A stretch of 44,865 nt of DNA, taken from positions 1-44,865 of the forward strand of contig JALWKJ010000155.1 in assembly GCA_027081495.1 (NCBI GenBank), written 5' to 3'. Below are positions 29,944 through 42,287 of this stretch, piece by piece. Both the position numbers and the translations under genes were made by a program. The notes beneath the pieces were generated by a model, which saw only the letters and a program-made list of their open reading frames with translations, made no database searches and was not told where the DNA came from. Within the stretch, counting starts at the first letter, position 1. The number at the start of each line of letters is the position of its first letter. The stretch is from Campylobacterales bacterium. GTDB lineage: Bacteria; Campylobacterota; Campylobacteria; Campylobacterales; QNZT01.

Positions 29944-30234
29944 ATGGCGCAAACTAAAAAAGTGGTATTCGTAGCCAAAGAGGGCTGTATAGAGGATTTA
30001 AAACGGCTTTTAACCGATATGGTCAAGCCTTCGAGAGCCGAAAAGGGATCTCTTTTGTATCATATATATCAGATGAAAGAAAAACCCGATACTTTCGTGG
30101 TTATTGAAACTTGGGAAAACGAAGAGGCGCTTGAGGGGCATAGAAATTCGAGTCACTACAAATATTATAAAAGTCATTTTGAACAATTTACGGCTGAAAA
30201 ATACTCGGACGAACTAATTGAGCTGGGAGAATAA
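29944..30234 (+). CDS. Antibiotic-biosynthesis-monooxygenase (ABM/YgiN-like) domain protein
   Basis: 96 aa ferredoxin-like fold signature: FVVIETWENEEALEGHRNSSHYKYY. Confidence 0.7.
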   Translation: MAQTKKVVFVAKEGCIEDLKRLLTDMVKPSRAEKGSLLYHIYQMKEKPDTFVVIETWENEEALEGHRNSSHYKYYKSHFEQFTAEKYSDELIELGE

Positions 30235-34329: not shown

Positions 34330-34995
34330 ATGTTAGCCAGTAGAAAATATATATATCAAAATCTCGAAGAGAAAAAAGAGAGTATAGATATACCCGAAAA
34401 AGAGATAAAAAAGGTCAAAATAAAAAGACCTAAGCCTCTCGATGAAGAGATTGAGCTTTCCGCGAAAAAATATATCATGAGCAAAACCGATCCAAAAGGA
34501 ATCATAGAATACGGCAATGAATATTTTGTTGAAATAAGCGGTTACAAAGAGAGCGAACTTGTCGGAAAACCCCATAATATCATCAGACATCCCGATATGC
34601 CCAAAGTTATTTTTAAACTATTGTGGGATCGTCTCGAAAGCAGAAAAAATATCTACGCGATAGTCAAAAACCTATCAAAAAGCGGTCGTTACTACTGGGT
34701 TATCACCGATTTCGATATCAAAATAAACCGTGCGACAAATGAAGTTTTAGGCTATTTCGCATATAGAAAAGCCGCTCCTAAATACGCCGTCAAAGAGATC
34801 GAGAAACTCTACAAAAAATTAACGGAAATCGAAGCGGAAAGCGGAATGGACGGCTCGCAAAAATATCTAACGGGCTTTTTGGAAGCTAGAGGACAAACTT
34901 ACGACGAATATATAGACGATATTACACGAAATAAAGGCATAGCGAAACTTTGGTTTAAAGCGATGAAAAAATTCTTTTCAAAAAAAGGGCATTAA
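34330..34995 (+). CDS. Soluble Aer/CetB-type (FAD-binding class) PAS domain protein
   Basis: TDPKGIIEYGNEYFVEISGYKESELVGKPHNIIRHPDMPKVIFKLLWDRL...VKNLSKSGRYYWV closely follows the Aer N-terminal PAS signature (PHNxxRHPDMP). There is no TM, HAMP or MCP signalling domain. Confidence 0.8.
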   Translation: MLASRKYIYQNLEEKKESIDIPEKEIKKVKIKRPKPLDEEIELSAKKYIMSKTDPKGIIEYGNEYFVEISGYKESELVGKPHNIIRHPDMPKVIFKLLWDRLESRKNIYAIVKNLSKSGRYYWVITDFDIKINRATNEVLGYFAYRKAAPKYAVKEIEKLYKKLTEIEAESGMDGSQKYLTGFLEARGQTYDEYIDDITRNKGIAKLWFKAMKKFFSKKGH

Positions 34996-36098
34996 AACTT
35001 TTTCTCTAAAACGGCGGTAAATATCTTTTGACTAAGTTTTATTCTACGAATGAAACTCTCTTTGTTGGCTCTCTCATGCACGGTATGATCGCCGTCGCCG
35101 TAAGGTCCAAATCCGTCAAGCGTTATAACGCCCGCGCTTGAGACGATATTTGCATCGCTTACTCCGCCTCTTTTTTCCGCCTCGAGTTTAAAGCCGGATA
35201 TCTTTTCTATTTTTCGTAAAAAGTCAAGCTGCGCCGCAAAACTTTGCATCACATCTCTTTGTATATCTCCGCTAAGAGTCGATGAAGCGCCCTCGACAAA
35301 CGAACTGTTTACGATCTCAAAAAGCGACTTTAAAACTCTGTCTCTCTCGGTTGATAGAGCGTAACGAACCTCCAGCGTTAACCTTGCGTGAGGAGAAACG
35401 GTATTTGCTCCTATACCGCCCTCGATTATTCCCACATTTACGGTCGTCTCTTTTTCAAGATCGCTTAAATCCGTCAACGCGATCAATTTTCTTGCCGCTT
35501 CGAGATTTGCGTTTACGCCTTTTGTATAATGATTTCCGGCATGAGAAGCTCTGCCTTTTATATCTATGAAAAATGTTCCAACCCCTTTGCGCCCAGATAC
35601 GACTTCGTCATTTGCTCCCGCCGCCTCATATACGAGACAATAATCGTAATCTTTTGCGATATCTTTTGTTAAAAATTTAGAATCGTCGCTGCCGGTTTCT
35701 TCGTCGCTTACAAGCAGCATATCTATATTTACTATTTTTCCAAACTCTTTATAAGCGTTTCTAAGCGCGCTTAGGGCTACGAAATTTCCGCCTTTCATAT
35801 CGCAAACCCCCGGACCGTAAATCCACTCTTCGTCTTCGCTAAAATGTTCGAAGCTATTTGGAGGAAAAACCGTATCGAGGTGTCCTAGCAAAAGAAGCTT
35901 TTTCCCATCCTCCTTTTTACTTATAAAATGAAGATGATCTCCTATCTCTTCTCTTTTGTGTATAACCGTTTTAAATCCCAGCTCTTTCATCCAAGCGGTA
36001 AAAATTTTACCGTTTTTATCAACGCCTTCTTTATTTTTCGTATATGAATTGATATTTACGATTTTTGACAAGTCCGAAAAGTCAAACTTATTTTTCAT
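34992..36098 (-). CDS. M20 family metallopeptidase, glutamate-carboxypeptidase (CPG2)-like
   Basis: LLLLGHLDTVFP, GPGVCDMKGG, LLVSDEETGS and a C-terminal GDGDHTVHE, the full set of M20 metal and catalytic motifs. No signal peptide. Confidence 0.8.
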   Translation of the reverse strand: MKNKFDFSDLSKIVNINSYTKNKEGVDKNGKIFTAWMKELGFKTVIHKREEIGDHLHFISKKEDGKKLLLLGHLDTVFPPNSFEHFSEDEEWIYGPGVCDMKGGNFVALSALRNAYKEFGKIVNIDMLLVSDEETGSDDSKFLTKDIAKDYDYCLVYEAAGANDEVVSGRKGVGTFFIDIKGRASHAGNHYTKGVNANLEAARKLIALTDLSDLEKETTVNVGIIEGGIGANTVSPHARLTLEVRYALSTERDRVLKSLFEIVNSSFVEGASSTLSGDIQRDVMQSFAAQLDFLRKIEKISGFKLEAEKRGGVSDANIVSSAGVITLDGFGPYGDGDHTVHERANKESFIRRIKLSQKIFTAVLEKKF

Positions 36099-36178
36099 AT
36101 AATTCCTTTTTATATAGCGACCATTAATTAAAATTTACCTATAATTATACAACTAATATCATTTAGAAAGGATATCTT

Positions 36179-37099
36179 ATGTCCTCATATAATATCGGAA
36201 TGTGGATGTACCAAAACAGCGGCGGCGATAAAATCCAGCGGCGATTGATCGAGCTATTGAAAGAGAGGGGTATAACCGTGCATCCCAATCTTAATCTAAG
36301 ATACGCGAAGGTTCGAAACGGAAAAATAAATTGTGAAAATATCGTCATGGAAGAGCTTGATCTCTTCTTCTCCTACAATGCCGGAGAACAAACCCTTTAC
36401 CAGGTATATCTGTATGAAATGATCGATAAATTTATACCGACGATAAACAGTTTTGAAGCTTTCAGTCTCAGCGAAGATAAATTTAAAACCGCTCATCTGC
36501 TTAAACGAAACGGCGTAAACACGGCGGACTATGTACTTTGCCATAGAGACGAAGTAACGAATATCAGAGAAATTTTAAAAGAGTGGGGAGGAAAAGTAGT
36601 ATATAAACCGACCGACGGGTGGGGAGGCGTGGGACTTGTAAAGATAGAAAACGAAGCGGCTTTAGATATGCTTCTTCCGTTTTTAAATCAAACCGATATT
36701 CGCTACTTTTATCTCGAAAGATTTATCCAATACGACAACACGGACTTTAGAATAGACATCGTTGACGGAGAGTTTGTTTCATGTTACGGTCGTCGCGCTC
36801 CAAAAGACAACTGGAAAACAAATATCACAAGCGGCGGCTCCATCATGCTAAGAGAAGCAAACGACGAAGTTGTGGAAATAGCGAAAAAAGCGGTAAAAAT
36901 ATGCGGTTTGGACATAGCCGGGGTCGATTTGATCTATGACCTTGAAAAAGAGGAATACATTGTGCTGGAAGTTAATGGAATTCCCGCTTTCGCAACTCCG
37001 CAGCAAGAAAAAATGGGACTTGATTTCAATGAAAAAAAGATAGATCTTATCGTAGATCTGATCGAAAAAAAAGTAAAAGGACGCTTCCAAAATGGGTAA
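36179..37099 (+). CDS. RimK-family ATP-grasp ligase (alpha-L-glutamate-ligase-like) 1
   Basis: EDKFKTAHLLKRNGVNT, VYKPTDGWGGVGLVKIE, DFRIDIVDGEFVSCYGRRAPKDNWKTNITSGGS and GLDIAGVDLIYD...YIVLEVNGIP (D/E/N Mg ligands present). Confidence 0.82.
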   Translation: MSSYNIGMWMYQNSGGDKIQRRLIELLKERGITVHPNLNLRYAKVRNGKINCENIVMEELDLFFSYNAGEQTLYQVYLYEMIDKFIPTINSFEAFSLSEDKFKTAHLLKRNGVNTADYVLCHRDEVTNIREILKEWGGKVVYKPTDGWGGVGLVKIENEAALDMLLPFLNQTDIRYFYLERFIQYDNTDFRIDIVDGEFVSCYGRRAPKDNWKTNITSGGSIMLREANDEVVEIAKKAVKICGLDIAGVDLIYDLEKEEYIVLEVNGIPAFATPQQEKMGLDFNEKKIDLIVDLIEKKVKGRFQNG

Positions 37100-38510
37100 A
37101 AAGAGAAAAAACAGACAAAAATTGCCGAAAATCGGTTTTTTATATCTTGATTTCGTATTGAGATTTTTTGACAAATCAAATTTCCGCGGCTGGCCGGACA
37201 AAATAGAGACCGTCACTTATCACTGGAAAAACGATAAAAACAGATTTATAAAAGAGGTAAAACGAAAAAAGATCGATGTGTTGATAGGAAATATTCCCGC
37301 AACGGCTTACGAAACTTTCAGAGAGATAGCAAAAGAGCTTCCCCATGTACGGTTTATCCCCTCTTTGGATACTCAGTTTTCAAATAAATCCAAAGAGAAT
37401 GTAACGAGATTTTGCTGGAAATACGACATACCCGTACCTCAAACCTATATCTTCTACGACAGAAAAAAAGGTTATGAATTTATAGAAAAAACCACTTATC
37501 CGAAAATCGTCAAAAAGAGCTACGGTCCATCAAATTACGGAGGGTATTTCGTACACAAAGTCGATTCGAAAGAGGAAGCGAAAAAACTGTTTGATATAAA
37601 AAAATACCATCCTATGTATATGCAGGATTTCGTACCTATGCAAGCGGATGTCAGGGTTATGCTTATCGGACATAAGCCCGTTTGCGCTTTTTGGAGAAGA
37701 CCGCCGAAGGGAGAGTGGCTTACAAATACTTCTCAAGGCGGAAGTATGGATTATCAAAATGTTCCAAAAGAGCTTTTGGATTTGGCGGTTAAAGTTTCAA
37801 AAGCGGCAAACGCGGAGTATTGGGCATGCGACATAGCGGTGGGCAAAGACGGAAAATACCGAATATTGGAGTGCGCTACCGCATTTGCGGCTTTTCCTTA
37901 CATAAGAGACTGGATAGGACAATACCTGATGTGGAAATTAAGCGACGGGAGATTTAAAAAACCGAATATTCCGCTTTACAACTGGGAAGAACTCGGAAAA
38001 ATCGACACATCGCTTCTAAGAACCATGCGCTATATCACTTTCGGCAAATATACTCCAAGCTTTGACGGCGAATATTTCATGAAGAAGAAAAAAGCGACCA
38101 TAAAAGGTCAAAAAGAGGTTTTCGTACTGGATTCACTCTATCCTATGCTCGATACGAAAGATAGAAAAGGCGAAGAGTGGCCAAGCCGAAAATGGAATTT
38201 TCAAGACAAATATAGGCTAAAAAGTATTAAAACGATGGAAGTAGAACGAATCGACGGCGACGAATCGTCTATAAACACCGAATCGGTAAGCGACGAAGCT
38301 TTTTTCGAATATCTCTCGACCGCCGCCAAAGAAGAGGGTTTTGGAAAGAAAAAAGCGAAACGGCTTCTTCAAGAACACGGTAAAGAGGAGTTAATAAAAA
38401 CTCTTGAAAAGAGTCCCGAAAAATTAAAACGGATGAAAGGAATCAAGAAAAAAAGATTTAAAAAACTACTCGACGGATGGGAGAGATTTAAACGGATATT
38501 TATGGTATAA
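37092..38510 (+). CDS. Divergent RimK-like ATP-grasp protein 2 with a long C-terminal extension ending in a basic (HhH)2-like tail
   Basis: KKSYGPSNYGGYFVHKV, DVRVMLIGHKPVCAFWRRPPKGEWLTNTSQGGS and ACDIAVGKDGKYRILECATAF; the usual E-x-N reads E-C-A. About 190 extra C-terminal residues end in GFGKKKAKRLL...LKRMKGIKKKRFKKLL. The start overlaps the stop of ligase 1 by 8 nt. Confidence 0.75.
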   Translation: MGKKRKNRQKLPKIGFLYLDFVLRFFDKSNFRGWPDKIETVTYHWKNDKNRFIKEVKRKKIDVLIGNIPATAYETFREIAKELPHVRFIPSLDTQFSNKSKENVTRFCWKYDIPVPQTYIFYDRKKGYEFIEKTTYPKIVKKSYGPSNYGGYFVHKVDSKEEAKKLFDIKKYHPMYMQDFVPMQADVRVMLIGHKPVCAFWRRPPKGEWLTNTSQGGSMDYQNVPKELLDLAVKVSKAANAEYWACDIAVGKDGKYRILECATAFAAFPYIRDWIGQYLMWKLSDGRFKKPNIPLYNWEELGKIDTSLLRTMRYITFGKYTPSFDGEYFMKKKKATIKGQKEVFVLDSLYPMLDTKDRKGEEWPSRKWNFQDKYRLKSIKTMEVERIDGDESSINTESVSDEAFFEYLSTAAKEEGFGKKKAKRLLQEHGKEELIKTLEKSPEKLKRMKGIKKKRFKKLLDGWERFKRIFMV

Positions 38511-38511
38511 T
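38503..38511 (+). promoter_or_regulatory. Extended -10 box (TGGTATAAT) overlapping the stop of ATP-grasp 2
   Basis: TGnTATAAT consensus 34 nt upstream of the M14 ATG, with GGAG 5 nt before the ATG. The same 12-mer TATGGTATAATC recurs at 42494. Confidence 0.45.
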
Positions 38512-38544
38512 CACCGCTTAGCATCTAACCCACTATGGAGCATT

Positions 38545-41130
38545 ATGAAACAACAATATAAATCTTATGAACAGACATGCTCTTTTTTAAAAGAGTGTGT
38601 TCAAAAATTTCCCAATCTTATCAAAATAGAATCTATCGGCAAAAGCTGGGAAGGCAGAGAGATACTTCTGGCGACCCTGACGATAGGAGTGGAAAACGCC
38701 GATCTTAAATCCGCCCTTTTATACACGGGCACTATTCACGCTAGAGAGTGGATCGGAAACGAACTTAGCGTCGCTTTTATAGAATATATACTTAAAAATC
38801 ATCAAAGCGATCCGAAAATCGCGGCTGCGCTGACAAAAAATACCCTCTATATGGTTCCGTGTTTAAATCCCGACGGTTTTGAATATTCCAGAACGCACTT
38901 CTCTTTCTGGCGCAAAAACCGCCGCGATAATAAAGACGGCACATTCGGAGTGGATCTAAATAGAAACTTCAGCGTCGGTTTTACAAAAATAAAAGATACC
39001 TCTTCAAATGTTTACGGAGGAGTCGAACCCTTTTCGGAACCGGAAACCAGAGCCATCAAAGAGTTTGTTGACGCTCATCCAAATATTACGATGGCGCTTG
39101 ATTATCATTCTCAGGGAAATGTTTTTTTCCCGGCTCACAAATTTAATCATGAAGCAGAGATAGAGGGAACCGATTTAAATGTTTTATGCGCGAACATGAA
39201 CTATGAAATTAAAAAAATCACGGCTAGACAATACGGTATCCATAGAGGAAAACCCCCCGTAAAACTCATCAGCGGAAGCGGTCGCGAGTACTACTACTCA
39301 AAAGGAATCATCGCCGCCGTCGTGGAAGTCGGAACGAGGAATATTCCCGATTATATGCAAAATATGACCGAAAGCATCCATGAAAATATTCCGGCTTTAC
39401 TCTATGCCCTCTCCGAAGCAAAAAACTATGCCAAAAACGCGCCAAAAAGAGTAGAAAACTTTTATATCTCTTCATTCTCGAGCAACAGCGTTACGCTTGA
39501 ATGGGAAGATAGCGGCGACAACCCGAATCTTTTTTATCAGATATACAGAAGCACCAAACATAAAGAGGCTTGCCGGGAAGAAAATCTCATAGCGACCACT
39601 ACGAAAAAAAGCTTTACGGACATCGAGCTTGAGAGCGCGACGGAGTATTTTTACTATCTTAGATCAGTTGACAAGATCACAAATACGAGATCGCCTTTCG
39701 CGCCTCAACTAAAAGTAAAAACGGATCTTGAAAGAGACGAATTTTCAAAAACGATTTTTCCGCCCCCGTCCGAAATCGGCTATGTAGCCGAAAAATCGAT
39801 AGAACAAAACAGAGAGCATTTCGGCAAAAACTCGATCTTTGTGGGAATAAACCAGACAAAAGGCATCAGTTACGGAGTTTTGGCGTTTTCTCTGGCAAAT
39901 ATCCCCGAAAACGCTATCATACAAGAAGCTTCGATTTCGATGTACCCCATGAACCGCGTAAATGTCAAAATAGAAAAATACGGCGAATGGTCGCTCTCTT
40001 TTATAGACAAAGAGAGCGTGAGCGAGATTACCGATTTTTACCAAATACACGAGGCGGAAATCATTCAAACTCTGGGAGAAACCATACCCTCCGAAAAACT
40101 CACTCAAGGGATTTGGAGAGAGTGGCATTTTAACGATTATGAGAAAAAATTGCTTGAGAGCCAAATCGCCGGCAAAAAAGTTCTCTTTCGTTTTCAAGGT
40201 CCCACAAAACTTCCCCTTGGAAGAGATTCTCAAATGATGCAGTTTGATTTAGGGTACGGACCTTTTGGAGGAGGTATTCACTACAGACCTCATCTGGATA
40301 TAAAATATACCCTTCCCCCGACAAAGATTGAAATAAAGCCGACGATTTTAAGCGCGGTAACCAAAGATAAAATTCTGCCCGACAAACTATCTTGCGGGTT
40401 TGACAAAAACGGCGACAAAATCTACGGATATATGGAGTTTTCGCTTGACACCCTGCCCGATCCCGACACTACGGTCATAACCGACGCCTACATAGTAATC
40501 CAAAACAAAAATAGACCCAAGCTCTCCGTCGATGCGAGATACAATATAGAATTTATAGATACGAAAAGCCATGAGTGGGAAGATATAAAAAATAGAGATA
40601 GAATCGAGTTTATAGGATACGAAGTAAGCATCGCCGATCTAAAAAAAAGAGACAAGCACTATTTTTTGTTTGATACTCTAAGCAAACTTGAACTGGAAAA
40701 TTTTCACAAACAAAACCATAGCGCAAATTTCGTCATAAAAGCGACGACTCCGGCAGACGCGAAAAACCATCGGGTTGACTGGCATGACAAACACGACGAC
40801 AAAGAGGTAAAACTTGTCATAAAATATATAAAACGGCGAAAGTACGCTCCCTCTTCGTGCAAAAACCTAAAGACATCGATAGAAAAAGGCATGGTCAAAT
40901 TGACCTGGGAAAATCCGAAAGACGAAAGCTTTGTAGGAGCGTATGTAGTAAGAAATCGTTTTCATCCGCCTAAAAATCCGCTTGACGGCGTAAAACTGTA
41001 TGCGGGAAGCGACAACTATACATACGATAACTTCGGCTCGACGAAAATCGATAAATATTACGCGGTTTTTTCCTATGACGATGTGCCAAACTACTCAACC
41101 CCCCTAGTTTTGGAATACAAAGGAAAATAG
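38545..41130 (+). CDS. Multidomain M14 zinc carboxypeptidase (M14 - FN3 - two repeated beta-sandwich-like modules - FN3), no signal peptide
   Basis: H65-x2-E68 (HAREW), NPDG, WRKNRR, DLNRNF, SEPETRA, DYH188S and VVE261VG, a complete M14 catalytic set. FN3-like regions at aa ~300-392 and ~768-861. The N-terminus MKQQYKSYEQTCSF is not hydrophobic. Confidence 0.85.
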   Translation: MKQQYKSYEQTCSFLKECVQKFPNLIKIESIGKSWEGREILLATLTIGVENADLKSALLYTGTIHAREWIGNELSVAFIEYILKNHQSDPKIAAALTKNTLYMVPCLNPDGFEYSRTHFSFWRKNRRDNKDGTFGVDLNRNFSVGFTKIKDTSSNVYGGVEPFSEPETRAIKEFVDAHPNITMALDYHSQGNVFFPAHKFNHEAEIEGTDLNVLCANMNYEIKKITARQYGIHRGKPPVKLISGSGREYYYSKGIIAAVVEVGTRNIPDYMQNMTESIHENIPALLYALSEAKNYAKNAPKRVENFYISSFSSNSVTLEWEDSGDNPNLFYQIYRSTKHKEACREENLIATTTKKSFTDIELESATEYFYYLRSVDKITNTRSPFAPQLKVKTDLERDEFSKTIFPPPSEIGYVAEKSIEQNREHFGKNSIFVGINQTKGISYGVLAFSLANIPENAIIQEASISMYPMNRVNVKIEKYGEWSLSFIDKESVSEITDFYQIHEAEIIQTLGETIPSEKLTQGIWREWHFNDYEKKLLESQIAGKKVLFRFQGPTKLPLGRDSQMMQFDLGYGPFGGGIHYRPHLDIKYTLPPTKIEIKPTILSAVTKDKILPDKLSCGFDKNGDKIYGYMEFSLDTLPDPDTTVITDAYIVIQNKNRPKLSVDARYNIEFIDTKSHEWEDIKNRDRIEFIGYEVSIADLKKRDKHYFLFDTLSKLELENFHKQNHSANFVIKATTPADAKNHRVDWHDKHDDKEVKLVIKYIKRRKYAPSSCKNLKTSIEKGMVKLTWENPKDESFVGAYVVRNRFHPPKNPLDGVKLYAGSDNYTYDNFGSTKIDKYYAVFSYDDVPNYSTPLVLEYKGK

Positions 41131-41781
41131 TTGGCGAAAAAAGCTTCGAAAAAAGAGATAGAGGAGATAAGAAAAAGATTTATCGAGCGCTATAAAGACG
41201 CGAAAACGGAGTTAAACTATACGAATCTTTATGAACTTTTAGTATCCGTAATGCTCTCGGCTCAATGCACCGACAAGCGGGTAAACATCATAACTCCCGC
41301 TCTTTTTAAAAAATATCCCTCGCCTAAAGAGTTGGCCGCCGCGAAAATAGAAGAGCTAAAAGATCTCATAAAAACCTGCTCTTTTTTTAATAACAAAGCC
41401 GCAAATCTCATAAAAATGGCAAAAAGCGTCGAAGAGATATATAACGGTGAAATTCCGCTGGATGAAAAAGAGCTTGTCAAACTTGCCGGAGTAGGACAAA
41501 AAACGGCTCATGTAGTCATGATAGAGTTTACTCAAAAAAATTTGATGGCGGTAGATACTCATGTTTTTCGCGTTGCGCATAGGTTGGGTCTTAGTTTCGC
41601 AAAAACGGTAAAACAGACCGAAGAGGATCTGGTTAACGCCTTTAAAACCGATCTATATATACTTCATCAGGCGATGGTGCTTTTTGGGCGATATATCTGC
41701 ACCGCCAAAAACCCAAAATGCGACAGCGAGTGTTTCATGAAAGATCTTTGCAAAACAAAAGAGAGCTTCAAAGCCGGCTGA
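41131..41781 (+). CDS. nth: Endonuclease III (HhH-GPD DNA glycosylase/AP lyase)
   Basis: LVSVMLSAQCTDKRVN, HhH LAGVGQKTAHVV, catalytic-Asp region VDTHVFRVAHRLG and a C-terminal Fe-S cluster CTAKNPKCDSECFMKDLC. The TTG start immediately follows the M14 TAG stop. Confidence 0.88.
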   Translation: MAKKASKKEIEEIRKRFIERYKDAKTELNYTNLYELLVSVMLSAQCTDKRVNIITPALFKKYPSPKELAAAKIEELKDLIKTCSFFNNKAANLIKMAKSVEEIYNGEIPLDEKELVKLAGVGQKTAHVVMIEFTQKNLMAVDTHVFRVAHRLGLSFAKTVKQTEEDLVNAFKTDLYILHQAMVLFGRYICTAKNPKCDSECFMKDLCKTKESFKAG

Positions 41782-42287
41782 TGAAAATAAGTCTCAAAAA
41801 AACAGCGATACAACTTCTGCAACTCGTAATCATAGTCGCGATCATCACGAACCTAATAAGCTATTTTAAAAAACCTCCCATAGCGAACGAAAGTCTGCCC
41901 GATATAAAGGTTCGGTTTTTGGACAAAAAAGAGCTCTCGCTATCCGATTTTAAAACAAAACCTCTTGTTCTCTATTTCTGGGGTTCTTGGTGTCCGGTTT
42001 GCAAGATAAACTCTTTGGCGATAAATAGCTTGACAAAAGATTTCAATGTCGTAACCGTAGCGGTAAACAGCGGCGGCGATGACGAGTTGAAAAAATATCT
42101 AAAAGATCATGATCTAAATTTTAAAGTCATAAACGACAATGACGCCAAACTGGCAAAGAAATTTGCCGTAACGACTTTTCCAACCACTTTCACATACGAC
42201 TCCAAAGGGGAAAATATCTTTGTTGACAGCGGCTATACATCCGCGTTGTCGCTTAGGTTTAAACTATGGATAGGGGAATTTTTTTAA
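41781..42287 (+). CDS. TlpA/ResA-like membrane-anchored thioredoxin (thiol:disulfide oxidoreductase)
   Basis: N-terminal TM helix (LLQLVIIVAIITNLISYF), WGSWCPVC active site and FPTTF cis-Pro loop. The ATG at 41781 overlaps the nth TGA; the ORF-track 21-codon extension lies inside nth. Confidence 0.82.
   Translation: MKISLKKTAIQLLQLVIIVAIITNLISYFKKPPIANESLPDIKVRFLDKKELSLSDFKTKPLVLYFWGSWCPVCKINSLAINSLTKDFNVVTVAVNSGGDDELKKYLKDHDLNFKVINDNDAKLAKKFAVTTFPTTFTYDSKGENIFVDSGYTSALSLRFKLWIGEFF

What the first reader, a model, noticed from the sequence alone, without database searches (positions are those of the whole stretch)
34992..41130. M20 peptidase divergent from two coupled RimK-like ATP-grasp ligases and a giant cytoplasmic M14 carboxypeptidase: candidate amino-acid-tail writer/eraser system
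Two ATP-grasp ligases of the RimK type sit side by side, and the second ATG overlaps the first stop by 8 nt (ATGGGTAA). They are followed 34 nt later by an 861-aa M14 carboxypeptidase with an intact catalytic set and no signal peptide. An 80-bp divergent promoter region separates them from a CPG2-like M20 glutamate carboxypeptidase. From established knowledge, RimK adds C-terminal poly-Glu to ribosomal protein S6, and in eukaryotes TTLL ATP-grasp ligases are opposed by M14 CCP carboxypeptidases. A locus that pairs two ligases with two intracellular carboxypeptidases fits reversible C-terminal (poly)amino-acid tailing of a protein or peptide. I see no precursor peptide gene, no transporter and no small-molecule pathway genes nearby. 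I do not recognise this combination as a described system.
Basis: partly seen in the sequence, partly recalled or inferred. Interest (0 to 1): 0.8.

Follow-up and report, generated by a model that had tools for sequence, protein, structure and literature searches.

The report
Conserved glutamate ligase–carboxypeptidase gene module
Marine sulfur bacteria and some gammaproteobacteria share a tightly conserved four-gene set: two RimK-like ligases (one carrying a DNA-binding-type domain) and two carboxypeptidases that by sequence should remove acidic residues, so it probably adds and removes glutamate tails on an unidentified cellular target.

Summary
The region holds a CPG2-like M20 peptidase, divergent across 80 bp from LigA (306 aa). 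LigB (472 aa) overlaps LigA by ATGGGTAA, and an 861-aa M14 carboxypeptidase starts 34 nt after LigB. None of the four has a signal peptide.

Synteny is strong. LigA sits directly upstream of LigB in 56 of 57 metagenome loci with enough flank, and M14 lies within 1 kb downstream in 54 of 62. The module occurs in many Campylobacterota and in Cycloclasticus, Marinifaba and Shewanella, in otherwise unrelated surroundings.

Three points are new:
- The M14 specificity position (255 in carboxypeptidase A/B numbering) is an invariant Arg, which predicts removal of acidic C-terminal residues.
- LigB invariably lacks the Asn of the ATP-grasp E-x-N motif.
- LigB always ends in a swappable DNA-binding-type module: HhH, ComEA-type HhH, or DUF1643.

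Neither ligase reaches the curated cut-offs for RimK, LysX, MptN, CofF or cyanophycin synthetase.

A reversible acidic-tail system on a macromolecule is the best reading (about 0.4). A small-molecule or free poly-glutamate role is not excluded. The target is unknown, and I found no published description. I rate it a new variant of a known kind.

The parts
34992..36098 (-). M20 peptidase, 368 aa, carboxypeptidase G2-like, no signal peptide. Predicted to hydrolyse a C-terminal or N-acyl glutamate.
   Evidence: Pfam Peptidase_M20 1.7e-19 plus M20_dimer 1e-16. 1cg2 at 1.5e-34, with all metal ligands and the catalytic Glu aligned, and the alignment starts after the CPG2 signal peptide. Below the NCBIfam cut-offs: glutamate carboxypeptidase 192.6 against 349, PRK07338 217.9 against 357. 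Next to LigA in 37 of 42 loci.
36099..36178 (.). 80-bp AT-rich divergent intergenic region between M20 and LigA. Presumed to hold the promoters.
   Evidence: Sequence read. The promoter-like matches in it are not more frequent than in shuffled sequence, so promoter function is inferred only.
36179..37099 (+). LigA, 306 aa, RimK-family ATP-grasp ligase with the canonical Mg-binding motif (LEVN at residues 263-266).
   Evidence: Pfam RimK 1.2e-18. NCBIfam rimK_fam 124.3 against 143.4, MptN 134 against 350, LysX 105.7 against 275.6, and E. coli-type RimK 54.9 against 331. PDB RimK 3e-15 and ArgX 4e-15. 'LEVNGIPAF' or a near variant in 125 of 125 copies.
37092..37099 (+). 8-nt overlap, ATGGGTAA, of the LigA stop with the LigB start (translational coupling).
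   Evidence: Overlaps or short gaps are also seen in Nitrosophilus labii and Cycloclasticus.
37092..38510 (+). LigB, 472 aa. An ATP-grasp core of about 330 residues (the most conserved protein of the module), then a disordered linker and a C-terminal helix-hairpin-helix pair.
   Evidence: Pfam RimK 1e-14 and HHH_5 0.0013. The family is narrow, with about five full-length 50%-identity clusters. AF2 model pLDDT 72.7. Best fold matches are LysX/ArgX, then RimK.
37869..37877 (+). LigB residues E260-C261-A262. This is the equivalent of the ATP-grasp E-x-N Mg site, with Asn replaced by Ala.
   Evidence: Invariant in the 48-sequence alignment and in 92 of 92 copies across the fetched loci. Coordinates checked.
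38289..38501 (+). LigB C-terminal (HhH)2-type module with the hairpins GFGKKKA and KGIKKKR. Predicted to bind nucleic acid.
   Evidence: HHH_5 hit and RecD2 N-terminal hit. In other LigB subfamilies it is replaced by ComEA-type HHH_3 (1e-13 to 4e-28; TIGR00426 58.8 against 53.1), and in Cycloclasticus by DUF1643 (1.3e-31).
38511..38544 (+). 34-nt spacer with a GGAG ribosome-binding site ahead of the M14 start.
38545..39429 (+). M14 catalytic domain (residues 1-295), carboxypeptidase A/B/T-like, with no pro-domain and no signal peptide.
   Evidence: Pfam 1.6e-53. PDB CPA4/CPT about 3e-25. Foldseek CPB/CPA/CPT/CPO, TM-score to target 0.75-0.82.
39283..39285 (+). Codon for Arg247 of M14. It aligns with specificity position 255, which is Ile in carboxypeptidase A and Asp in carboxypeptidase B.
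   Evidence: Two independent HMMER alignments place it there. 'SGSGRE' is found in 131 of 131 family copies, including subclades at 49-57% identity.
39442..41127 (+). M14 C-terminal 560 residues: fn3 (300-392), two DNRLRE-type beta-sandwich domains (398-590 and 593-765), and an fn3-like domain (770-861). Presumed substrate-recognition module.
   Evidence: AF2 model pLDDT 82.6, pTM 0.80. fn3 hits. DNRLRE domain at 28.8 bits here, and 34.7 against a cut-off of 34 in the Sulfurimonas ortholog. Many invariant columns.
41131..41781 (+). nth (endonuclease III). It starts at the base after the M14 stop. A lineage-specific neighbour, not part of the core module.
   Evidence: TIGR01083 at 223 bits against 211.7. 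Directly downstream of M14 in 13 loci, all in the Sulfurospirillum-like clade.

Best explanation
This is a self-contained cytoplasmic module that builds and trims a short acidic tail, most likely alpha-linked glutamate, on the C-terminus of a macromolecular substrate encoded elsewhere in the genome.

Proposed roles:
- LigA is the catalytically canonical RimK-type ligase.
- LigB is made in fixed ratio with LigA through start/stop overlap. It is a diverged RimK/LysX-like subunit that is tethered to nucleic acid by its C-terminal HhH or DUF1643 module. It either carries out a second ligation step or targets LigA to the substrate.
- The 861-aa M14 enzyme removes acidic C-terminal residues one at a time. 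Its four beta-sandwich domains would recognise the substrate.
- The CPG2-like M20 enzyme removes a remaining glutamate that the M14 cannot take off.

Shown: gene order, domain identities, intact catalytic sites, the invariant Arg at the M14 specificity position, the LigB E-C-A substitution, the swappable C-terminal module, conserved synteny, and the absence of export signals.

Inferred: glutamate as the added residue, a protein as the substrate, nucleic-acid tethering, and the division of labour among the four enzymes.
For: Synteny across two phyla in otherwise unrelated surroundings:
- LigA is adjacent to LigB in 56 of 57 loci, M14 is within 1 kb of LigB in 54 of 62, and M20 is next to LigA in 37 of 42.
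- Isolate genomes carry the module: Nitrosophilus labii AP022826.1 and a Cycloclasticus isolate genome, CP005996.1.
- The genes are translationally coupled.

Enzyme features:
- Both ligases belong to the RimK/LysX/MptN alpha-L-glutamate-ligase superfamily but to none of its curated equivalogs.
- The nearest folds to LigB are LysX/ArgX and RimK, which act on protein C-termini.
- M14 Arg247 sits at position 255 and is invariant in 131 of 131 copies. From established knowledge of M14A enzymes, Ile255 gives hydrophobic specificity, Asp255 basic, and Arg at this position (as in carboxypeptidase O) acidic.
- M20 is closest to CPG2, a glutamate-releasing enzyme, and all metal ligands are present.
- All four proteins lack signal or transmembrane segments.

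Signs of a macromolecular target:
- The M14 has a large and highly conserved accessory region.
- LigB evolves very slowly. It keeps 69% identity where M14 is 54% and LigA 51%.
- Three unrelated C-terminal modules, at least two of DNA-binding type, occupy the LigB C-terminus in different lineages.

Precedent: RimK with the glutamate-removing protease RimB in one operon (PMC11957791).
Against: - No substrate has been identified, and no biochemical data exist.
- 24 of 67 M14 loci have no LigB upstream, 13 of them with at least 7 kb inspected. Sulfurimonas sp. CS5 has M20-LigA-M14 without LigB. The parts are therefore separable, and the M14 may have a role independent of the ligases.
- LigB lacks the Asn of the E-x-N motif and may be a poor catalyst or inactive.
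- The M14 residue aligned with Tyr248 is not conserved.
- RimK-family enzymes also act on cofactors (MptN, CofF) and can polymerise free glutamate, and CPG2 is a folate hydrolase. The same enzymology therefore fits a small-molecule substrate.
- bS6 in the Sulfurovum loci ends in -E-A rather than the -E-E that E. coli RimK extends.
Confidence: 0.4

Rival explanations
1. The substrate is a small molecule or a free peptide. In this reading the ligases add alpha-linked glutamates to a carboxylated cofactor or metabolite (folate- or pterin-like, as MptN and CofF do), or they polymerise free glutamate into oligo- or poly-alpha-glutamate. The M14 and the CPG2-like M20 then recycle the product to free glutamate. 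Such a system could serve as a glutamate, osmolyte or nitrogen buffer in marine bacteria.
For: - The best NCBIfam hit of LigA is MptN (134 bits), then rimK_fam.
- CPG2, the closest solved relative of M20, hydrolyses the glutamate of folates (established knowledge).
- RimK makes free poly-alpha-glutamate (PMC11957791).
- No substrate gene travels with the module.
- All hosts are marine or hydrothermal.
- Pterin- or folate-related neighbours occur in some lineages: MoaA, PTPS and MoeA in Nitrosophilus, and ThyX in Sulfurovum-type loci.
Against: - All small-molecule equivalog scores are far below cut-off: MptN 134 against 350, CofF 63.5 against 300, cyanophycin synthetase 51.7 against 850.
- A DNA-binding-type module that is retained through three domain replacements on LigB is hard to explain for a metabolite enzyme.
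- The M14 carries 560 residues of conserved beta-sandwich domains, which is unusual for a small-molecule hydrolase.
- The pterin and folate neighbours are lineage-specific.
Confidence: 0.28
2. The module is a LysW-type amino-group carrier pathway. LigA and LigB would act like LysX/ArgX, attaching an amino acid to the C-terminal glutamate of a carrier protein. The M20 enzyme would act like LysK and release the product.
For: The best fold matches of LigB are LysX and ArgX. LigA matches ArgX at 4e-15. M20 weakly matches [LysW]-lysine hydrolase and N-acetyl-lysine deacetylase models.
Against: - LysX model scores are 105.7 and 71.8 against a cut-off of 275.6.
- No LysW-like small zinc-ribbon ORF was found in the part of the window scanned (28-45 kb), and no kinase, reductase or aminotransferase gene (LysZ/Y/J) in the window or in 160 related loci.
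- M20 is much closer to CPG2 (123 bits) than to LysK models (51 bits).
- An M14 carboxypeptidase has no role in that pathway.
Confidence: 0.04
3. The M14 is an exported or cell-wall enzyme like Csd4/Pgp1 or MpaA, trimming peptidoglycan peptides, and the ligases and M20 are only loosely related neighbours. More generally, the four genes would not form one functional unit.
For: - fn3 and DNRLRE-type beta-sandwich domains are typical of extracellular proteins.
- M14 occurs without ligases in about a third of loci.
- Campylobacterota are known to have M14 peptidoglycan carboxypeptidases (established knowledge).
Against: - There is no signal peptide, lipobox or transmembrane segment, and the M14 fold starts at residue 5-7 in all orthologs.
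- The M14 gene follows an ATP-dependent ligase gene closely: 34 nt apart here and a 17-nt overlap in Nitrosophilus labii.
- Linkage persists in two phyla while the surroundings change completely.
- The catalytic domain is closest to M14A/carboxypeptidase T.
Confidence: 0.05

Closest known systems
RimK / RimB (RimABK) ribosomal protein bS6 poly-alpha-glutamylation system of Pseudomonas and E. coli
   Same: It has an ATP-grasp ligase of the RimK family encoded next to a dedicated peptidase that removes the added glutamates. It is cytoplasmic, and the operon encodes no substrate (PMC11957791; Pfam RimK hits).
   Different: - This module has two ligases, neither orthologous to RimK (54.9 and 15.9 bits against a cut-off of 331).
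- The erasers are two metallo-carboxypeptidases (M14A-like and M20) rather than a retropepsin endopeptidase.
- There is no RimA (EAL) protein.
- One ligase carries a DNA-binding-type domain and an altered Mg site.
- The substrate is unknown.
Eukaryotic TTLL glutamylases with CCP (M14D) deglutamylases
   Same: The logic is the same: ATP-grasp ligases with initiating and elongating roles are opposed by M14 zinc carboxypeptidases specific for acidic residues that carry beta-sandwich accessory domains.
   Different: - The ligases here are RimK/LysX-like, not TTL-like.
- The M14 is carboxypeptidase A/T-like (M14A). All best PDB matches are CPA, CPB, CPT and CPO, and no CCP appears.
- The beta-sandwich domains are C-terminal.
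- The resemblance is convergent, not homologous.
LysX/ArgX-LysW amino-group carrier system with LysK (M20)
   Same: These are the closest folds to LigB. That system also combines an ATP-grasp enzyme acting on a protein C-terminal glutamate with an M20 hydrolase that releases the product.
   Different: There is no LysW and no downstream pathway enzymes. Scores are below cut-off. An M14 enzyme is present here.
MptN / CofF cofactor alpha-L-glutamate ligases and carboxypeptidase G2
   Same: MptN is the best-scoring curated model for LigA, and CPG2 is the best solved relative of M20. The chemistry is the same: addition and removal of an alpha-linked terminal glutamate.
   Different: The scores are less than 40% of the equivalog cut-offs. 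From established knowledge, not tested here, the hosts are bacteria without methanopterin or F420 pathways. CPG2 is periplasmic, whereas this M20 has no signal peptide.
Carboxypeptidase O and other M14A enzymes specific for acidic residues
   Same: The M14A fold is shared (5mrv Foldseek TM-score to target 0.81), with no pro-domain and a basic residue at the specificity position 255.
   Different: This is a bacterial, cytoplasmic enzyme with a 560-residue C-terminal extension. The Arg assignment rests on alignments to carboxypeptidase A4 and B, not on a direct alignment to carboxypeptidase O.

Membership tests
RimK (30S ribosomal protein S6--L-glutamate ligase) | ATP-grasp fold with the RimK-type domain | tested here: met
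   PF08443: LigA 1.2e-18, LigB 1e-14. PDB RimK 5zct at 3e-15 for LigA.
RimK (30S ribosomal protein S6--L-glutamate ligase) | Score above the curated cut-offs (NF007764 331 bits; TIGR00768 143.4 bits) | tested here: not met
   LigA scores 54.9 and 124.3. LigB scores 15.9 and 79.3.
RimK (30S ribosomal protein S6--L-glutamate ligase) | Adds glutamate to the C-terminus of bS6 | not testable with these tools
   There are only contextual hints. M14 lies next to rpsF-ssb-rpsR in 7 genome loci plus one metagenome locus. In those loci bS6 ends in -E-A.
LysX/ArgX carrier-protein ligases | Equivalog score, an adjacent LysW carrier gene, and LysZ/Y/J genes | tested here: not met
   TIGR02144 scores 105.7 and 71.8 against 275.6. 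No LysW-like ORF and no pathway genes.
MptN / CofF cofactor glutamate ligases | Equivalog score | tested here: not met
   MptN 134 and 70.9 against 350. CofF 63.5 and 53.9 against 300.
Cyanophycin synthetase | ATP-grasp domain fused to a Mur-ligase-like domain, about 870 aa | tested here: not met
   51.7 bits against 850. The proteins are 306 and 472 aa and have no Mur-ligase domain.
Canonical catalytic ATP-grasp ligase | Mg-binding Asp ... Glu-x-Asn triad | tested here: met
   This row refers to LigA: D...LEVN, conserved in 125 of 125 copies.
Canonical catalytic ATP-grasp ligase (LigB) | Mg-binding Asp ... Glu-x-Asn triad | tested here: not met
   LigB has D247 ... E260-C261-A262. The Asn is replaced by Ala in 92 of 92 copies. 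The other nucleotide-binding motifs are conserved.
Peptidase M14, subfamily A (carboxypeptidase A/B/T/O type) | HxxE...H zinc site, Arg127, Asn144/Arg145 and Glu270 equivalents, and the funnelin fold | tested here: met
   H65, E68, H188, R123, N139/R140 and E261. Foldseek TM-score to target 0.75-0.82.
Peptidase M14, subfamily A (carboxypeptidase A/B/T/O type) | Tyr248 equivalent | tested here: not met
   It aligns with Lys240, which varies in the family (K, G, H, Q, A, S, T). This loop has low model confidence.
Cytosolic carboxypeptidases (CCP, M14D) | M14D-type catalytic domain with an N-terminal beta-sandwich domain | tested here: not met
   No CCP appears among 54 PDB sequence hits or the top 50 fold hits. 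The accessory domains are C-terminal.
Csd4/Pgp1-type periplasmic peptidoglycan carboxypeptidases | Signal peptide and periplasmic location | tested here: not met
   There is no hydrophobic N-terminal segment, and the fold starts at residue 5-7.
Carboxypeptidase G2-type glutamate carboxypeptidase (M20A) | Di-zinc ligands, catalytic Glu and dimerisation domain | tested here: met
   The alignment to 1cg2 conserves H, D, E, E and H ligands and the catalytic Glu. M20_dimer 1e-16.
Carboxypeptidase G2-type glutamate carboxypeptidase (M20A) | Curated subfamily score (NF004788, 349 bits) and periplasmic export | tested here: not met
   192.6 bits. No signal peptide, and the alignment starts at CPG2 residue 24.
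ComEA-type (HhH)2 DNA-binding domain | Score above the TIGR00426 / PF12836 cut-off | tested here: inconclusive
   Met in the LigB subfamilies P0363-65 and P0369 (PF12836 1e-13 to 4e-28; TIGR00426 58.8 against 53.1). The window's own LigB gives only a sub-threshold HHH_5 hit (19.7 against 27), although two GhG hairpins are visible.
Known anti-phage defence systems | Match to any PADLOC model | tested here: not met
   No hit for any of the four proteins. LigB is absent from viral contigs.

The most novel reading that the evidence does not exclude
Bacteria have a nucleic-acid-tethered, reversible glutamylation system that is convergent with eukaryotic TTLL/CCP. LigB docks on DNA or rRNA through its swappable HhH or DUF1643 module. 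LigA and LigB then add a poly-glutamate tail to a DNA- or ribosome-bound protein, with bS6 as one candidate, to change its binding to nucleic acid. An acid-specific M14 and a CPG2-like M20 erase the tail.
Probability: 0.25. Interest if true: 0.85.

Novelty: new variant of a known kind. Interest (0 to 1): 0.62.

Why it matters
The only characterised bacterial case of reversible protein glutamylation is RimK/RimB acting on ribosomal protein bS6.

This module would be a second, differently built system, with these features:
- two ligases and two metallo-carboxypeptidases;
- a ligase that carries a DNA-binding-type domain;
- conservation at housekeeping level, with spread between Campylobacterota and marine Gammaproteobacteria.

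It occurs in cultured isolates (Nitrosophilus labii, Cycloclasticus, Marinifaba aquimaris, Sulfurimonas), so the hypothesis can be tested directly.

If the substrate turns out to be a cofactor or free poly-glutamate, the module would instead define an uncharacterised glutamate-conjugate cycle in chemolithotrophs of vents and sediments.

In either case, several hundred genes now annotated as 'hypothetical protein', 'peptidase' or 'S6 glutaminyl transferase' would receive a function.

Tried and rejected
- **Anti-phage defence:** no PADLOC hit, and LigB is absent from viral contigs.
- **Non-coding features:** there are no Rfam matches in 28-45 kb, and promoter- and terminator-like sites are not above the shuffled expectation.
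- **Hidden precursor or carrier gene:** a scan of small ORFs (25-130 aa) for acidic or Cys-rich candidates found only an ABM-domain protein at 29944-30234 ending in -ELGE. Its orthologs end in -SLG, so it was rejected as a carrier. No window protein has a striking acidic C-terminus.
- **Folds of the M14 C-terminal domains:** the PDB fold search was dominated by the catalytic domain. A sequence search of residues 296-861 gave only marginal fn3 hits.
- **Iyer et al. 2009 amidoligase survey (PMC3268129):** this paper may list a similar neighbourhood, but it is not held in the library.
- **Literature searches:** combinations of RimK, ATP-grasp, M14, carboxypeptidase and the host genera returned nothing that describes this module.
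- **DUF1643:** I recall it as a member of the uracil-DNA-glycosylase superfamily. Neither Pfam, PDB nor the literature confirmed this here, so it is reported only as a recollection.
- **Ligases in genomes where M14 stands alone:** Loci with M20-LigA-LigB and no M14 within 7 kb do show that the module can be split.

Full report
**Observation**

The ORF list and the raw sequence confirm every stated coordinate.

- M20 peptidase: 34992-36098, minus strand.
- An 80-bp AT-rich gap separates it from LigA.
- LigA: 36179-37099.
- LigB: 37092-38510. Its ATG lies inside ATGGGTAA, which also holds the LigA stop codon.
- A 34-nt spacer with a GGAG follows.
- M14 gene: 38545-41130, encoding 861 aa.

Pfam gives Peptidase_M20 plus M20_dimer, the RimK ATP-grasp domain for both ligases, and Peptidase_M14 at 1.6e-53. 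M20 aligns with carboxypeptidase G2 at 1.5e-34. All metal ligands are conserved, and the alignment starts after the CPG2 signal peptide.

The M14 domain aligns from residue 5-7 with mature carboxypeptidases A, B and T. The zinc ligands H65, E68 and H188 are present, as are R123, N139/R140 and E261. The Tyr248 equivalent is not conserved.

None of the four proteins has a signal-like or membrane-spanning segment. The window is contig JBPNCO010000160.1 of assembly GCA_054008755.1, a Sulfurospirillum-like member of the Campylobacterota.

**Is it a unit?**

A genome scan with the M14 protein found 544 relatives. I examined the 80 best loci, all from assemblies other than the window's own.

- Of 67 such loci with at least 1.7 kb upstream, 39 have LigB within 1 kb, 4 have it 1.6-6 kb away, and 24 have none.
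- The reverse scan, centred on LigB in metagenome contigs, found 517 relatives.
- In that scan LigA is directly upstream in 56 of 57 informative loci.
- M14 is within 1 kb downstream in 54 of 62.
- M20 is next to LigA in 37 of 42, divergent in 34 and co-directional in 3.

The module is present in isolates:
- Nitrosophilus labii, with 4-nt and 17-nt gene overlaps;
- a Cycloclasticus isolate genome, CP005996.1;
- Marinifaba aquimaris, and also a Shewanella MAG.

Flanking genes differ completely between lineages. The four genes therefore travel as a self-contained module, and no fifth gene travels with them. Sub-combinations exist: LigB-M14 in some Sulfurovum loci, M20-LigA-M14 in Sulfurimonas sp. 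CS5, M20-LigA-LigB without M14, and M14 alone.

All four proteins are conserved at or above the level of neighbouring housekeeping genes. In L010, for example, the identities are LigB 75%, LigA 71%, M14 70% and M20 67%, against NadD 59% and RsfS 68%.

**The ligases**

Neither ligase reaches a curated cut-off for any characterised member of the family:

| Model | LigA (bits) | LigB (bits) | Cut-off (bits) |
|---|---|---|---|
| E. coli-type RimK | 54.9 | 15.9 | 331 |
| rimK_fam | 124.3 | 79.3 | 143.4 |
| LysX | 105.7 | 71.8 | 275.6 |
| MptN | 134 | 70.9 | 350 |
| CofF | 63.5 | 53.9 | 300 |
| Cyanophycin synthetase | 51.7 | 15.5 | 850 |

LigA has the canonical Mg-binding LEVN motif in 125 of 125 copies.

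LigB forms a very narrow family. There are only about five full-length clusters at 50% identity, after which the matches drop to generic RimK-like proteins at about 33% identity.

LigB's first 330 residues are the slowest-evolving part of the module. They keep 69% identity in a locus where M14 is 54% and LigA 51%. However, the Asn of the E-x-N motif is Ala (E260-C261-A262) in 92 of 92 copies, while the other nucleotide-binding motifs are kept.

The AlphaFold model (pLDDT 72.7) matches LysX and ArgX best, then biotin carboxylase, synapsin and RimK.

After a disordered linker, LigB ends in a pair of helix-hairpin-helix motifs. This module is replaced in other lineages:
- In other LigB subfamilies it is a ComEA-type HHH_3 domain, at 1e-13 to 4e-28 and above the TIGR00426 cut-off.
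- In Cycloclasticus it is a DUF1643 domain at 1.3e-31.

The HhH and ComEA-type modules are of DNA-binding type. I recall DUF1643 as a relative of uracil-DNA glycosylases but could not confirm that here. Replacement of one such module by another at the same position argues that nucleic-acid binding is a selected property of LigB.

**The peptidases**

The M14 catalytic domain is of the A/B/T/O type, not the CCP type.

Two independent alignments, to carboxypeptidase A4 and to bovine carboxypeptidase B, place Arg247 at specificity position 255, which is Ile in A and Asp in B. The motif SGSGRE is invariant in 131 of 131 family members, including subclades at only 49-57% identity. From established knowledge of M14A enzymes, a basic residue at this position predicts a preference for acidic C-terminal residues, as in carboxypeptidase O.

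The remaining 560 residues fold in the model (pLDDT 82.6, pTM 0.80) into an fn3 domain, two DNRLRE-type beta-sandwich domains and a final fn3-like domain. They contain many invariant positions.

The M20 enzyme is closest to CPG2, which releases glutamate. Both peptidases therefore point to C-terminal acidic residues, in agreement with the glutamate-ligase family of the two ligases.

**Most likely mechanism**

The best-supported reading is a cytoplasmic add-and-trim system for an acidic tail, probably alpha-glutamyl, on a substrate encoded elsewhere.

I favour a macromolecular substrate associated with nucleic acid, for three reasons: the nucleic-acid-binding-type module of LigB, the large conserved accessory region of the M14, and the housekeeping-level conservation.

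A precedent exists. RimK is encoded together with RimB, a protease that removes the glutamates from bS6 (PMC11957791).

Hints at a ribosomal link are weak and lineage-specific:
- M14 lies directly upstream of rpsF-ssb-rpsR in Sulfurovum-type loci.
- In Sulfurimonas the module sits between rpsP-rimM-trmD-rplS and an rRNA operon.
- A degenerate LigB-like ORF occupies the same site after rplS in another lineage.
- In the window, rsfS lies about 800 bp from the module.

Against bS6 as the target, bS6 ends in -E-A in the Sulfurovum loci.

**Rivals**

The same enzymology fits a cofactor tail (as with MptN and CofF, and with CPG2 acting on folate) or free poly-alpha-glutamate turnover. I give this about 0.28. 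It leaves the LigB C-terminal module and the M14 accessory domains unexplained.

A LysW-type carrier pathway is unlikely, because there is no LysW and no pathway genes, and the scores are below cut-off. An exported cell-wall role for the M14 is unlikely, because it has no signal peptide and follows an ATP-dependent ligase gene closely (34 nt here, a 17-nt overlap in Nitrosophilus labii).

**Novelty**

I found no description of this module in the searchable literature. Databases call the proteins hypothetical, generic 'peptidase' or 'ATP-grasp domain-containing protein', or by automatic transfer 'S6 glutaminyl transferase'.

The general idea of ATP-grasp ligases linked to peptidases is known, and so are RimK/RimB and TTLL/CCP. 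I therefore class this as a new variant of a known kind. The function is unproven.

Noticed in passing
L051, L055, L059, L060, L062, L071, L081 (downstream of M14, about 10.6-12 kb in locus coordinates) and L156:9650-10854: In Sulfurovum-type genomes the M14 gene is followed on the same strand by rpsF (bS6), ssb and rpsR, with a gap of about 100-150 bp and sometimes a small ABM-domain gene in between. bS6 there has a long acidic C-terminal extension ending in -x-E-A, and SSB ends in -DEDEIPF. This is probably a single evolutionary event, but bS6 is the known RimK substrate.
   Followed up: partly
L089:5000-19300 (Sulfurimonas sp. CS5, CP180409.1): All on one strand: rpsP-khpA-rimM-trmD-rplS, then M20-LigA-M14 (M14 only 49% identical, no LigB), then a complete 16S-tRNA-23S-5S operon.
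   Followed up: partly
L171:8001-9224: A 287-aa, GC-rich, degenerate LigB-like ORF (P0371, 44% identity, no Pfam hit). It keeps 'LLECSTAFA' but has lost the RRPP..W.TN.SQGGS motif. It sits directly after rplS, at the same site as the module in Sulfurimonas. It may be a decaying remnant.
   Followed up: no
L088:10912-12531; L069:6183-7799; L074:6146-7795: Cycloclasticus LigB carries a C-terminal DUF1643 domain in place of the HhH pair. Its 'ITLHPT' / 'IALHPS' motif resembles the G-I-N-P-G motif of MUG/TDG glycosylases, with His in place of Asn. The link of DUF1643 to the UDG superfamily is my recollection and was not verified.
   Followed up: partly
window 38172-38207 (LigB residues 361-372) and orthologs: A short acidic-aromatic motif, EEWPSxKWNFQD, inside the otherwise disordered and variable LigB linker is conserved from Campylobacterota to Cycloclasticus, Marinifaba and Shewanella. 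It could be a docking motif for a partner.
   Followed up: no
window 41131-41781: nth (endonuclease III) starts at the base after the M14 stop codon with a TTG start. The next ORF, a TlpA-like thioredoxin (41718-42287), overlaps it. nth therefore seems to be co-transcribed with the module in this clade (13 related loci).
   Followed up: partly
window 34330-34995: A 221-aa single-PAS-domain protein converges on the M20 gene, and their 3' ends overlap by 4 nt. It is conserved next to the module only in the Sulfurospirillum-like clade, after nadD-rsfS.
   Followed up: no
window 29944-30234; L051, L055, L062, L081: A 96-aa ABM-domain protein lies 5 kb upstream of the module in the window. Its ortholog lies immediately after M14 (a 2-3 nt gap) in Sulfurovum loci. 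Its C-terminus (-ELGE here, -SLG there) is not conserved.
   Followed up: partly
window 8700-29100: The minus strand carries a long run of short ORFs, and the same contig has S10 and L3 just beyond them. This looks like the S10-spc-alpha ribosomal protein super-operon, so the module sits in a region rich in translation genes.
   Followed up: no
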